Source: Octopus vulgaris (taxonomy: Eukaryota). From it: a DNA stretch of 64,000 nucleotides. Within the stretch, counting starts at the first letter, position 1; the number at the start of each line of letters is the position of its first letter. Shown here piece after piece: positions 5,919 through 55,172 of the stretch. The stretch spans positions 26,474,001 to 26,538,000 of the forward strand of contig OX597828.1 in NCBI GenBank assembly GCA_951406725.2. The letters run 5' to 3'. Made by a program: the position numbers and the translations under genes. The notes below the pieces were generated by a model that was given only the letters and a program-made list of their open reading frames with translations, was not told the origin of the DNA and searched no databases.

Positions 5919-6693
5919 AATGCAAATAATCAGAAAATGTATAAAACTCTATTTAACAAACACATCAACTGGACCACATTTATAGCTTATTTTTTAATAC
6001 AAAGCATGACATAACAAGTAGGTGACATAGCAAATCTTACGGCCGTTTCCGATCAGTTGCCAAAATGCTGTCTATAAATAAATGCAAGAATAAAGTTCTC
6101 CGTCTTCATAGGACATTGGAATTAAGCTCGTAGTGGTCTACAGAATATTCCCTAGACCACTACTAGCTCACTCTTTTACCTACAGACCTCGTAGCCCATA
6201 GATGGTAAATTATGTGCTTTAAACTTATTGGGCTTCTCCGCTTTTGCTCTAGGCCATGTTTTCTTTCCTTCCCTTCTTCTCTTTGTTTATATTGGATGCT
6301 TTCGTTTTTTACTCTGATGAAGCTCTGTGCCTTAATTCCAATGTCCTATGAAGATGGAGAACTTTATTCTCGCATTTATTTATAGACAGCATTTCAGCAA
6401 CTGATCGGAAATGGCCGTTACATCACCTATTTTGTTATGTCGTGCTTTGTATTAAAAAATAAGCTATAAATGTGGTCCAATCGATGTGTCTGTTAATCTG
6501 AGGTTTTCTCCATTTTCTAATTATTTGCATTGGTCCCTGATAAACTCTTGTTTATTCTGTTGTTACCTGCCCTCTATGTGCTTGGTGCGCCTGCATACCA
6601 ATGCCCGGGGATAATACAAGTAATGGATACCGATAGTATATACGGATATTTTATCCCTTACTCGGTTATTATAACTGCTAACTCTGTTTACTT
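5919..6693 (+). mobile_element. Fold-back element 1: probable Penelope-like pLTR remnant with inverted copy
   Basis: Inverted arms 5919-6126 / 6331-6531, with central hairpin GTAGTGGTCTA/TAGACCACTAC (6130-6163). GAAACGGCCGTA on minus at 6038-6049, degenerate GAAATGGCCGTT at 6408-6419, CTGATGA at 6314-6320. One-sided tail 6532-6693. (TA)n on both sides. Confidence 0.7.
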
Positions 6694-7261
6694 ATATATA
6701 TATATGTGTGTGTGCATGTATATATATATATATATATACACACACACACACACACATACACACTTCTAATTCTCTACAGATTATGTGAATCTATTACCCC
6801 TGAAATCGTAATTCTAAGAAGAATACATATTCCTATATTCATAGCATATAATCTATCCTTTATACTAGAATATATTTACTTTGTATATTTCAATTAATCT
6901 CTGAGAATAATCAAGAATGTATAGGTTTACTGAGATGAATGTCTCTTTTAATGGAATGGTATTTGGAATAGAAGATAGTGAGATGACGGAGTTATTAGGC
7001 TGTTGGACAGAAAAGTCTTGTGACATCATCAGTTCTGGCTCTCTGCGCTCTGAGTTCATATCCTGTTAAGTCAACGTTGCCTTTTATCTTTTCAGGGTCA
7101 ATAAAGAACCAAGCAAGTGCTGGCATTGATTACTCAGTGTCTTTCTTTCTCTCTGTCTCAGAATTAGTAAATTGTACCATGAGAAGAGTGGAATGATGTG
7201 AGAATACACACAATTTTCTCTCGCTCTCTCTCTCTCTCTCCCCTATTCTCCAGAAATGGCA

Positions 7262-7410
7262 AAGGGTTTGAGTGTAGGGCTTAGCAACGTCATCTCACAG
7301 AAAATCTGATATGATGCTGGAACCCTCAAAGGACAGAACCATGTGCAGCAAAGCACATAACAGAAATAAACAAGAAGAAGAAGAAAGATGAGATTTTGGA
7401 ACATGGTTTA
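7262..7410 (+). pseudogene. Possible RTE-clade LINE 5' fragment (start of AP-endonuclease ORF)
   Basis: GGGCTTAGCAACGTCATCTCACAGAAAA leader, then frameshifted ATGAGATTTTGGAACATGG, resembling the 'MRFGTWN' start of RTE endonucleases. Confidence 0.4.
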
Positions 7411-8162
7411 ATGAAGAACAAATGTTCCTGTAATGAAATTCCATGTTAACATTGATGTAATAGCAACATTTTCGATTTGAATATGAACATCACTATTCTT
7501 TTTTTTTTTAATATCATTAAAATGGACATTCTCAGGTGGGTTGGTATTGAAATGGTTAAACAAATTTACATTACAAAATATATGAATGAAAAAACAGACA
7601 GCTGCTGATGCTGCTGCTGATGATGATGATGATAGGACACTTCTATTATTATTTCAGATTTCTTTAGAATATACAAGAAGGCAAGAAAAGAGCTGGCCTT
7701 GTAATTTGTGCTTCAGAGGGAAATGAGTCACACTAGATACAGTCATTAACAAACTCATGCCACAATAACAGTTTTCTTGTCAACAGTTCAAATCCTGATT
7801 TAATTAATTGATTAATCATTCTCTCCTCTGATGATTTACTGTATAAACACTAGTAGCATGCTGGGATAGGTAATCAAAAAAAAATTACATCATATTTAGA
7901 GATATCAAATTTTTGTGTTATCCTTATGTTACAAATACGTAAATTCCTTCTCACTGCCCCTTCTTATAACAACTATACCGGCTCCCACCTTTTGTTTTAA
8001 CGAGCTAACCATTTATTGCAGACCCTTCAATGCATTTACCTTTTCTCTCCTCATTACTCCTACATGATGGTCACATACCACAATCCATCCAAATCATTTG
8101 CCCAAAGCTTCCAAGGACCCCCCTCTTATGCCTTTTGCATTTTTCATTGCAATAGACATATA

Positions 8163-8500
8163 AGGTGCAGGAACAGGTGTGTGGTTTAAGAAGTTTGTGT
8201 CACATCTATGTGGTTTCAGCACCTTTGGTAAGAGCCTTCTACTATAACCCCAAACCAACCTGTTGCGTGTGTGTGTGTGTGTCCATGCGTGCACATGTAT
8301 ACTTGTTATGGCTGTGATTGCTTCTCACTGCTCGAAAACAAGTATTGGTTTGTTTATGTTCCCATAACTTAGCAGTTTGGCAGAAGCTCTAACAGAATAA
8401 ATACTAAACATCAAATAAGTATTGGGGTCAATTTGATCAACAAAATCCTTCAAGCGTTGCTTCAACATGTCCGCAGTCCAATGATTGAAACAAGATAAAG
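8163..8500 (+). mobile_element. Degenerate family A SINE with internal deletion
   Basis: Head GGTGCAGGAA..TGTGTGGTTTAAGAAGTTTG, middle CCCATAACTTAGCAGTTTGGCA, tail CAGTCCAATGATTGAAACAAG. Confidence 0.75.
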
Positions 8501-52225: not shown

Positions 52226-53084
52226 AAGGATGTGAAGGATTTTAAAAAGAATCCCAAGCGGAAGGTGCTCGAGAGACACATTGGCCAACAAATGAAACTT
52301 TTTAAAGTGTGCAGGATAACAAAACCATCGAGGACACATTCATTCAATATCTGTTCTTAGCTGATCTCAGGGTTTCTGTTGATTAACTGTTATTCAGTGT
52401 GAGACAAATTCAGCTATCTCTAGAATTGAACTCACAGATCAACCCCTGTCTTCCTTCGGCATGGAAGACTGGACAGTCTTCCACTGGACGATTGAGATGG
52501 ATAAGAAAAATTATGAACACAATTGAAAGTTTTGAGGACAGAGCTGTTCCTCTCATGCCAAATTCTTATCAATTGCTTCAAGTGGAACTTGAAGAGAAGG
52601 ACAGGAGAGGGAGACAGGTGTTGTCTTCTAGTAAATCTTATGCAAGGTAGGTGACAGAGAGATGAAACTGATGTAGCTAAACTATCCTATACAAAATATG
52701 TGACTGTGGACTGATGGCATTCGCTTTTGGTGTGACATCATAATCTGGAATTTTGCATGGGGTGTCCCAAATTGCACTATATTGCACTCCAAAACTGTTT
52801 TGGGGATCTTTCTTTTTAGTTCTTATTTTGTTGACTTTCTGTTGTCTTTTATTATTAACAATTTATTATTTTATAATATTTATTATTTTATTATTGTGTA
52901 TTTATGTGTCTTAATGGTTTTGCTGTTTTCATCTGGTTTACTCAATATAGATCTTCATTGTATCGTGTTTGCTATTTTCTTTTGTTATTCATTCAGATAC
53001 TTTTGTTCTGCTTCCAACATCTTGGGCTCTTCTGGCCGTTAAAAGAAATCATTAAACTAGAAAATAAATGGGATCATTCACATA

Positions 53085-53395
53085 TATCATCATCCTCCTC
53101 ATCATTTAATGTTCATTTTCCATGCTGGCATGGGTTGGACAGTTTGACAGGAGCTGGCAGTCTGGAGGGATGCACCATGCTCCAGTCATCTGTTTTGGAA
53201 TGGTTTCTATGGCTGAATGCCTTTCCTAACATCAACCACTTTACAGAGTGTACCGGGTGCTCTCCAATGTGATGCCGGCACAGGTACTTTCTTCACATGG
53301 CACTGGTACAGGTGCTCTTTTACATGGCACCAACAGGAGTACTCTTTTATGTGGCACCAGCACTCTTAGCATGGGTGCTTTCTATGTGACACCAA
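53085..53395 (-). mobile_element. Family C element with expanded internal ~27-bp GGTGC...GCACC repeats
   Basis: CATTTTCCATGCTGGCATGGGTTGGACAGTTTGAC, then 4-5 units of GGTGCTCTTTTACATGGCACC-like sequence. Confidence 0.8.
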
Positions 53396-54674
53396 AAATT
53401 ACACTAAGAAGATTTTATTACATAAAAAAATCCCCCAAAGACTTATTTTCTGTTATAAAAAGAGAAAGAGAGATGACATTGTTTTATTAGAAATTAACTT
53501 CTTAAGAGAGATGATTCTTGAACTAGATTAAAAGCAACTGGTGATATTCATTAGTTCTCAGTTAAGCGAAATTGAAATAAATAATGATAACGAAGCTAAT
53601 AATTTAGCCTCTTGATTAATTAACAGCTACAAAAGCACACACCTACACATACATATACACACACACAAACACTGTAACCCTTCAAGAACTGCAGGGAAAA
53701 TAGATATTTGAGAGAGAGAGAGAGAGAGAGTAGAATGACTTGACCTAAAATCCTATATGTCCTCTCATTCTTCAGTGTGAAAATGAAGACTGCTGCCACT
53801 GCTTTGCTCCCACCATAATAAAAAAAAAACAAAGAAAAAAAAAAGAAAAGAAAAAGAAAGCAAAATGGAGAAGAGAACCATTTGTAATGAACATTGTAAT
53901 GACAAGAACTAGGTTGAAAAACAAAACAACCAATTAATTAATTTAATTAATTAATTAATTAATTAATTAATTAAAGATGACCAAAATAAAAATGTGTTTT
54001 GTTGGAAAATTCATTCAGTACAAATATGTCTGCTGCAGTGTACTGTTCCATGTCTGTTGGTTGCTGGAATTAACACCAAGTAAAGGACTGTAAAATCAGA
54101 AAGTATGTCTTCCCAGGTGTCAGCACACACACACACAAACAATCATCATCATCATCATCATTTAATGTCTGCTTTGTCTGATGATGCTGCAGCTGTATAT
54201 ATATATATATATATATATATATATATATATATATATATATATATATATATATATATACATACACACACACATACATGTTTAATATACATATATAACTAAT
54301 CATAATATTTCTGATTAATGAAGCTGTGAAACAGTAGAAGAAATTTATTCATTACCATTCATTAATATCCAATTATTGTGTGTGTGCATGGGAGAGAGAG
54401 AGAGAGAGAGAGAGAGAGAGAGAGAGAGAGAGAGAGAGAGAGAGAGAGAGAGAGAGAGAATGCTTGTGTTATGATCTTTTACTAGTTTTAGACGTTGGCC
54501 TGTGGCTATGCTGGTACACTGTACTTAAATTTTGAGTCTGGTACTTTGTCAGTCTCTTTTGCCAAATCATCAAGTCATGGGGATGTAAACAAAGGTAGAC
54601 AAAGACACTCTCAATCACATACACGAATATGTATGTGTGTGTAAGTATATATATATATATATATATATACACAC

Positions 54675-55172
54675 ACAAGTCTATAAGGTGTGTTATGAGC
54701 ATTTATAGAACATGTATTCTATATAAACTCAACAAACAATTAATTGATGGAGAATGAGAAGATGTTAAAAGTTTATAAAATTTTAATCCATGCATATGAT
54801 CATTTCGAATGGTAACACCAACATGTATTAATTAATTATAATTAATTAAATCAATTAATTATAATTAATTTAATCTCTTCCATGTTTCTTACATGCTGGT
54901 GTTACCATTTGAAACAATCATATGCAGCATGGATTAGAATTATATAAAACTTTTAACATCTTTTCTTCTCCATCTTTAATTGTTTGTTGAGTATATATAG
55001 GAATACATGTTCTATAAATGCTCATAACACACCTTATAGTCTTGTATAATTTCCATATTATTTTTATAAAATACTTGCAATAGCAAGCTACAAATTTAAT
55101 ATGAAGAATCTTTATTAGAAATCTAACTTTGGCCCCACCAAAGTAAAACTGTTCTAACTGACCTCAAACCCA
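54675..55172 (+). mobile_element. Fold-back element 3: probable Penelope-like pLTR remnant with inverted copy
   Basis: Inverted arms 54675-54826 / ~54890-55045 around an AT palindrome. GAAATGATCATA on minus at 54795-54806 and GAAACAATCATA at 54911-54922. One-sided tail 55046-55172. Flanked by (TA)n/(CA)n. Confidence 0.65.

What the first reader, a model, noticed from the sequence alone, without database searches (positions are those of the whole stretch)
5919..55172. Three unrelated fold-back elements share one architecture: (TA)n target, long inverted repeat, minimal hammerhead signature, one-sided tail
Seen: elements at 5919-6693, 32270-32747 and 54675-55172 show no obvious mutual sequence similarity. 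Yet each (i) is bounded by (TA)n-rich tracts, (ii) is a 150-210 bp inverted repeat folded around a small central hairpin, (iii) lacks a segment in one arm next to the centre, (iv) has a 100-160 bp tail on one side only, and (v) carries an outward-pointing GAAA-[6-nt palindrome]-TA in at least one arm, with a degenerate or identical copy in the other (CGGCCG, CAATTG, TGATCA). Established: GAAA-palindrome-UH is the stem III and cleavage site of minimal hammerheads in Penelope-like element (PLE) pLTRs, which are thought to cleave as dimers, and PLE insertions often carry inverted pLTRs. Inference: this is a set of (TA)n-targeting, ribozyme-bearing short PLE derivatives, dense here (3 in 64 kb), that insert as palindromes. 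If transcribed within an intron, each would form a long dsRNA, a potential ADAR or Dicer substrate in an editing-rich lineage.
Basis: partly seen in the sequence, partly recalled or inferred. Interest (0 to 1): 0.85.

Follow-up and report, generated by a model that had tools for sequence, protein, structure and literature searches.

The report
Palindromic stubs of Hydra-type Penelope retrotransposons
The three hairpin-shaped repeats are real and are the cut-short tail ends of three families of a known kind of jumping gene (Hydra-type Penelope-like elements), and their lopsided shape likely arises because each end of the broken target DNA starts its own copy at a different one of two fixed points on the element's RNA.

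Summary
Each fold-back is the 3' end of a multi-copy family. Longer copies of all three families run into broken RT plus C-terminal GIY-YIG ORFs with Hydra-clade motifs. Craig 2021 describes that clade as (TA)n-targeting and hammerhead-bearing, with one octopus family. They are truncated insertions, not separate short elements. The families carry a full hammerhead, but only 1 of the 6 window arms keeps it intact, and paired arms lie on opposite strands. Inverted 5' copy plus one-sided tail is published PLE anatomy. Differences from print: tails of about 100-160 nt (print: 30-40), long 3' UTRs and a long helix II. One rule stands out: of 32 classifiable arm pairs, 31 join a tailed end to a tail-less end, none join two tailed ends, and the 1 exception is another family. 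Arms of one insertion share private variants. Both fit one RNA primed twice (inferred). Central hairpins occur in only 8 of 35 junctions, and density is near the genome sample. Transcription and editing are untested. The scan found similar stubs before in other genomes.

The parts
5919..6126 (-). E1 inverted arm: family 3' UTR from 370 to 162 nt before the 3' end; stops at the short (tail-less) end; holds the intact 3' half of the hammerhead (GAAA CGGCCG TA at 6049-6038) but not the CUGAUGA half
6127..6147 (-). E1 central piece: 21-nt inverted copy of the start of the long arm (556-536 nt from the 3' end); forms the central hairpin; 165 nt are missing between it and the rest of the arm
6146..6691 (+). 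E1 long arm: last 556 nt of a Hydra-type PLE 3' UTR; core CTGATGA at 6314-6320, damaged 3' half at 6408 (TGGCCG, then a 9-nt deletion)
6532..6691 (+). E1 tail (160 nt), between the short and the long 3' end, followed by (TA)n
32270..32542 (-). E2 long arm: family 3' UTR from 314 nt to the long end, with a 44-nt internal deletion at 32496/32497
32270..32367 (-). E2 tail (about 98 nt)
32401..32486 (-). Only complete hammerhead in the three elements: stem I GTGG/CTAC, CTGAAGA (32482-32476), long helix II, GAAA CAATTG TA (32416-32405); activity untested
32546..32747 (+). E2 short arm: 303 to about 98 nt before the 3' end; its core reads GTGAAGA (C3 changed) at 32633
54675..54848 (-). E3 short (inverted) arm: 315 to about 129 nt before the 3' end, 17-nt deletion; only the 3' half of the hammerhead, palindrome decayed to TGATCA
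54855..55172 (+). E3 long arm: last 312 nt of the family 3' UTR, starting inside loop II, so the CTGAGGA half is absent; palindrome decayed to CAATCA
55046..55172 (+). E3 tail (about 127 nt), followed by (TA)n/(CA)n

Best explanation
The three elements are 5'-truncated insertions of three different Hydra-clade Penelope-like retrotransposon families in TA microsatellites, and each palindrome likely forms when both nicked target strands prime reverse transcription on the same RNA, one at a long and one at a short 3' start site, with the two aborted cDNAs then likely joined head to head. Shown: family membership, fixed long and short ends, (TA)n flanks, ORF link, hammerhead core in the families, strict long/short pairing, independent arm lengths. 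Inferred: GIY-YIG cuts both strands of (TA)n; two primings on one RNA; joining by end repair with microhomology or filler; small central hairpins and adjacent gaps as repair scars or later palindrome trimming. The hammerhead would act in the parent transcript, not in these stubs.
For: ORF link: E1 copies L091/L092; E2 copies L204-L208; E3 copies L243-L245. Their motifs match the Hydra definition and, by eye, the Hydra-1_Obim protein in the supplement of PMC8557442. Two discrete 3' ends per family. Pairing in 139 loci: 31 long/short, 0 long/long, 1 short/short (another family on inspection), 22 unclassified, 85 with no inverted arm in view. The same pairing holds in three further families with long ORFs, L135, L138 and L139. 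The tail-less arm extends further 5' than the tailed arm in at least 6 of 31 pairs (L032, L150, L168, L172, L207, L179), which self-copying of the tailed cDNA cannot give. Arms of one insertion share non-CpG variants at 57/266, 33/207 and 50/226 sites against 192/2370, 101/2559 and 120/2372 between insertions (Fisher P below 1e-9 each, sites not independent). PMC11167929 shows in vitro, for a lizard PLE, cleavage and extension of both target strands and two RT start sites that bound the tail.
Against: In all three window elements the arms reach back to within 0-11 nt of each other and meet in a hairpin, as fold-back self-priming would predict; only 5 of 32 other junctions have such a hairpin. 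85 of 139 loci show no inverted arm within about 1.5 kb, so a second cDNA is not always visible. Shared variants could come from later gene conversion or from a shared source locus. PMC11167929 saw no difference in start site between the two strands, so the strict pairing is not explained there. Loci are best hits, not a random sample. Pfam and PDB sequence searches gave no hit for the ORFs; RT identity rests on motifs, the atlas and the by-eye match to the published protein.
Confidence: 0.6

Rival explanations
1. Same elements, but the palindrome comes from fold-back: one cDNA starts at the long end, stops, snaps back, copies itself, and the endonuclease resolves the intermediate at the tail boundary. 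This is in the spirit of the self-priming idea of PMC3846280 and the EN-resolution idea of PMC8557442.
For: It explains strict long/short pairing, shared variants and the equal reach of both arms with a central hairpin in E1-E3. Short ends lie at TA-rich motifs that an AT-cutting enzyme might use.
Against: The tail-less arm is the longer one in at least 6 of 31 pairs, up to 3.6 kb against about 140 nt in L207. In window E2 the tail-less arm holds 44 nt that the tailed arm lacks. 27 of 35 junctions have no hairpin. Each case would need a later deletion.
Confidence: 0.27
2. The short palindromes are non-autonomous elements in their own right (retrozyme- or SINE-like PLE derivatives) that are transcribed, self-cleave and are re-mobilised as units.
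For: Short copies dominate the hit lists. A 2026 preprint derives animal retrozymes from PLEs (title and passages). One E2 arm has a complete hammerhead.
Against: 5' ends and junctions differ from copy to copy, and no unit junction recurs apart from segmental duplicates. Copies grade continuously into ORF-bearing elements. No head-to-tail arrays were seen. 5 of 6 arms lack a working core.
Confidence: 0.06
3. They are MITE or foldback DNA transposons with long terminal inverted repeats and a TA target.
For: Long inverted repeats flanked by TA.
Against: Ends are asymmetric, one end is fixed while the other is variably truncated, many copies have no inverted arm, and long copies encode RT plus GIY-YIG rather than a transposase.
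Confidence: 0.01

Closest known systems
Hydra clade of C-terminal EN+ Penelope-like elements, including Hydra-1_Obim and Penelope-13_HM (Craig et al. 2021, PMC8557442)
   Same: DKT motif, CxCX5C linker, no CCHH, CxxC and CxH around the conserved E and N, (TA)n target, hammerhead near the 3' end. E2's core context (ctgaagat tgc...gca tgaa) has the same U/U position as the listed Hydra hammerheads. Penelope-13_HM is listed with a 5'-truncated inverted copy at its 5' end.
   Different: Published Hydra elements are generally under 3 kb with loop 2 of 10 nt or less. These have 3' UTRs of roughly 1.2-2.4 kb, N-rich ORF inserts in E1 and its relatives, 59-87 nt between the two core halves, and tails of about 100-160 nt. 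The E1-E3 hammerheads differ in sequence from that of Hydra-1_Obim (by eye).
Canonical PLE insertion unit: inverted 5'-truncated copy plus optional 30-40 bp tail (PMC8557442 Fig. 2; PMC3846280)
   Same: Head-to-head inverted arms, tail on one end only, palindromes at the inverted junction, N-rich inserts.
   Different: Tails are 3-4 times longer. The strict long/short pairing is counted here, whereas the passages read call the tail optional or often one-sided.
Poseidon PAc of Anolis (Frangieh et al. 2024, PMC11167929)
   Same: Two internal RT start sites bound the tail; both target strands are cut and extended; AT-rich target.
   Different: Different clade. There the hammerhead and start sites overlap the ORF start; here they lie at the end of a long 3' UTR. 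The main text read does not derive the inverted arm from the two primings.
Minimal type I hammerheads of metazoan PLEs (Cervera and De la Pena 2014, PMC4209133)
   Same: Short helix I (2-5 bp), long helix II, palindromic helix III thought to need a dimer; pairs of motifs 100-700 bp apart on opposite strands were already noted in Schistosoma.
   Different: Much longer helix/loop II; no Rfam hammerhead model matched the intact E2 copy.

Membership tests
Hydra-clade PLE | Single ORF with RT followed by C-terminal GIY-YIG endonuclease | tested here: met
   Broken but ordered RT-thumb-EN in long copies of E1, E2 and E3; for E3 only the region from RT motif B onward was recovered
Hydra-clade PLE | DKG motif changed to DKT | tested here: met
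   E1 SDKTRN, E2 ADKTGN; not recovered for E3
Hydra-clade PLE | N-terminal RWK motif | tested here: inconclusive
   RWK or RWR in related long ORFs of the genome; region truncated or decayed in the E1-E3 copies read
Hydra-clade PLE | CxCX5C linker before GIY-YIG | tested here: met
   CNCRNRNNC (E1), CNCRIRSRC (E2) and CNCRNPNTC (E3)
Hydra-clade PLE | CCHH motif absent; CxxC and CxH flank the conserved E and N | tested here: met
   E1 CYLC..E..ACLH; E2 CELC..E..CIH; E3 CKLC.EE with CRH in a shifted frame
Hydra-clade PLE | Insertion into (TA)n | tested here: met
   Most of the 90 loci printed end in TA, CA or TG repeats right after the fixed 3' end (read by eye); 5' flanks of inverted arms likewise
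Hydra-clade PLE | Hammerhead motif near the 3' end | tested here: met
   Core 5' half equals the majority in 26 of 35, 52 of 65 and 23 of 50 scored arms; stems I and II form for E2 and E3, only a 2-bp stem I for E1
Hydra-clade PLE | Length generally under 3 kb | tested here: not met
   Long copies span at least 3.5-5.7 kb; the paper gives this as a general trait, not a strict criterion
Hydra-clade PLE | Placement in the Hydra clade on an RT tree | not tested
   Reference proteins could be read in the supplement but were not available to the tree tools; compared by eye only
Active minimal hammerhead ribozyme | Self-cleavage as dimer or with protein help | not testable with these tools
   Only 32401-32486(-) has all core positions
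Non-LTR retrozyme / non-autonomous unit | Recurring unit with shared ends, often in tandem arrays | tested here: not met
   5' ends and junctions vary per copy
MITE / foldback DNA transposon | Symmetric terminal inverted repeats, both ends fixed | tested here: not met
   0 of 32 classifiable pairs have two long ends; 85 of 139 loci show no inverted arm
Naiad PLE | N-terminal EN and no canonical hammerhead | tested here: not met
   EN is C-terminal and a hammerhead core is present

The most novel reading that the evidence does not exclude
Hydra-type PLEs obligatorily couple their two RT start sites to the two ends of one target break, copying a single RNA twice. In this likely octopus genome a large, partly still intact radiation of such families has left tens of thousands of self-contained 100-250 bp hairpins (rough extrapolation 11,000-82,000 from 5 in 400 kb), which supply a major share of the dsRNA behind cephalopod hyper-editing.
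Probability: 0.2. Interest if true: 0.65.

Novelty: new member of a known kind. Interest (0 to 1): 0.3.

Why it matters
The elements are an ordinary product of a described retrotransposon clade. Two points have value. First, how PLEs make inverted structures is called open in PMC8557442; the long tails here make the two start sites easy to tell apart, and near-intact ORFs of sister families in this genome give a direct in vitro test of one-RNA double priming against fold-back. Second, PMC5625713 reports exceptionally many dsRNA-forming loci and strong hyper-editing in octopus without repeat annotation for it, and heavy editing of Penelope in lizard (passages). These palindromes are a concrete candidate source, untested here.

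Tried and rejected
Rfam: the whole-window scan listed mostly microsatellite matches to miRNA models (150 of 290 rows shown), and a focused scan of the intact E2 motif found no hammerhead model; not used as evidence against, since helix II is far longer than usual. Pfam gave 0 families for 3 PLE ORFs and for 117 of 225 window ORFs of 60 aa or more, so no host gene was identified; PDB sequence search gave 0 hits. No PLE coding remnant lies in the window (tblastn). Sequencing runs: no RNA holder listed. Three guessed-RNA contig sets and one run of unknown kind laid on 24000-34500 gave even low cover of unique DNA, no convincing spliced joint among rows shown, and no A>G excess; paralogous copies swamp the E2 arms. 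The one short/short pair (L173) proved to be an arm of a different, related family. One search was swamped by simple repeats and was redone with masking. One locus (L219) had its strand mislabelled and was not used. Duplicate or overlapping loci dropped before the counts: L035, L039, L047, L057, L063, L064, L144, L148, L149, L151, L158, L174, L189, L192; still included some segmental duplicates. Paper searches for the two-primer reading and for octopus Penelope editing found no paper stating either, but the library lacks most subscription papers, and bioRxiv supplements were closed.
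Full report
Observation. All five features are in the sequence. The window holds exactly three local inverted repeats with complex arms of 80 nt or more, and they are the three named. The window lies in a 2.8-Gb genome of 227 contigs; size and microsatellite load suggest an octopus, which is my inference and was not tested.

Families. Each element belongs to a dispersed family: first-look candidates 1322, 3203 and 725, with 40 scored each. Copies share a sharp 3' end followed by TA, CA or TG repeats and have variable 5' ends. Walking upstream linked each family to coding DNA. [quoted passage not shown] E2 copies L204-L208 do too, up to 5.7 kb. E3 copies L243-L245 carry the later RT, thumb and EN. 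All are broken by stops or frameshifts.

Clade. The fragments show DKT, a CxCX5C linker, no CCHH, and CxxC and CxH around the conserved E and N. These are the diagnostic traits of the Hydra clade in section 11 of PMC8557442, read whole. Its supplement lists Hydra-1_Obim from Octopus bimaculoides with a (TA)n target, and Penelope-13_HM with a 5'-truncated inverted copy. The Hydra-1_Obim protein matches motif by motif by eye. Pfam and PDB gave no hit; the atlas gave clusters at 0.95-0.98 with PF26215 and, in 16-20% of members, RVT_1. No tree was built. The genome holds further families of this type with ORFs of 840-960 codons (150 of 4552 candidates scored; 20 loci read).

Hammerhead. Family majority sequences carry CUGANGA, a 59-87 nt helix/loop II, then GAAA-palindrome-UA, cleaving 282, 135 and 245 nt before the long end. 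Stems I and II fold for E2 and E3; E1 has a 2-bp stem I, as does a sister family with a long ORF. This fits the minimal PLE hammerheads of PMC4209133 (parts 1-2 of 4 read) apart from the long loop. In the window only the E2 long arm is complete. The E2 short arm has C3 changed, which kills activity in PMC11167929. E1's short arm and both E3 arms lack the 5' half, and E1's long arm has a damaged 3' half. The two arms are antisense to each other, so a read-through RNA would fold as a long duplex (about -230 to -360 kcal/mol predicted) rather than as a ribozyme dimer.

Two ends, one rule. Each family has a long and a short 3' end about 160, 98 and 130 nt apart. In 139 loci (30 E1, 54 E2, 55 E3, after dropping 14 duplicates), 31 pairs were long/short, 0 long/long, 1 short/short, 22 unclassified, and 85 had no inverted arm in view. 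The short/short case is another family. Either arm can carry the tail, and the tail-less arm is the longer in at least 6 of 31 pairs. Three sister families show the same pairing. In 32 pairs, arms of one insertion shared private non-CpG variants 2.6-4.4 times as often as arms of different insertions, and the own partner ranked first in 15 of 32. These loci are best hits with about 1.5 kb flanks, not a random sample.

Mechanism. PMC11167929 (main text read) shows that a lizard PLE cuts and extends both target strands and starts at two sites bounding the tail. I infer that here each target end primes one cDNA on the same RNA, one at each site, and that the truncated cDNAs are joined head to head. 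The rival is fold-back self-priming with EN resolution (PMC3846280 and PMC8557442, passages). It fits the window's three elements, whose arms reach back to within 0-11 nt of each other, but fails where the tail-less arm is longer. Central hairpins occur in 8 of 35 adjacent junctions, 3 of them the window's own, and 9 of 35 had arm reaches within 25 nt as scored.

Density. Forty evenly spaced 10-kb stretches gave 15 fold-backs (2.4 per 64 kb), and 200 kb of flanking DNA gave 2. About 5 of the 15 show the TA-flush plus tail pattern or belong to such a family: L248, L264, L275, L277, L283 (part of the output of 72 was cut). That is 0.8 per 64 kb; three in the window has post-hoc P about 0.05. The extrapolation to the genome is about 35,000, range 11,000-82,000.

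Expression. No host gene was found and the run data are uninformative. The ADAR or Dicer idea is plausible from PMC5625713 (passages) but untested.

Novelty. Inverted copy, one-sided tail, (TA)n target and hammerhead are all in print for PLEs, and Hydra is known from octopus. New here are additional families with long tails, UTRs and loop II, and the counted pairing rule. Eight paper searches found no statement of the one-RNA double-priming reading; the library is incomplete. Earlier notes of this scan reported like stubs in two other genomes; the look-up in this genome was empty. Verdict: real, explained, new members of a known kind; interest 0.3.

Noticed in passing
L128-L132, L133-L135, L136-L140: At least three more Hydra-type families with ORFs of 790-960 codons, N-rich inserts between RT and EN, and their own hammerheads (palindromes CAGCTG, CAATTG, CATATG); many near-identical RT hits suggest recent activity. 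L128 and L129 have the hammerhead region in direct repeat on both sides of the ORF.
   Followed up: partly
L248:4712-5534 and L277:705-1209: A further fold-back family in the random sample with hammerhead core and palindrome CGTACG, same long/short architecture; ORF link not sought.
   Followed up: partly
L300:3309-3514 (about 47 kb beyond the window's end): Another E2-family fold-back with 76-nt arms.
   Followed up: no
L006, L016, L021, L054, L069, L152: Some copies have internal 5' inversions that do not start at either 3' end, like LINE-type twin-priming inversions (term recalled).
   Followed up: no
window 12721-13151, 28227-28664, 51810-52223: Copies of a roughly 430-nt dispersed repeat at 90-92% identity, very deep in the laid runs; likely a SINE.
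   Followed up: no
window 32008-32092 and 33044-33129: Two short, 76% identical SINE-like pieces in inverted orientation on either side of E2.
   Followed up: no
L246:8340-9040: 267-nt inverted repeat enclosing degenerate telomere-like TTAGGG repeats, far from a contig end.
   Followed up: no
L093:510-3660: An 807-codon ORF with endonuclease and RT motifs of a LINE, unrelated to the finding.
   Followed up: no
window 19125-19685 and 35351-35742: Tandem duplications with periods of 167-204 nt.
   Followed up: no
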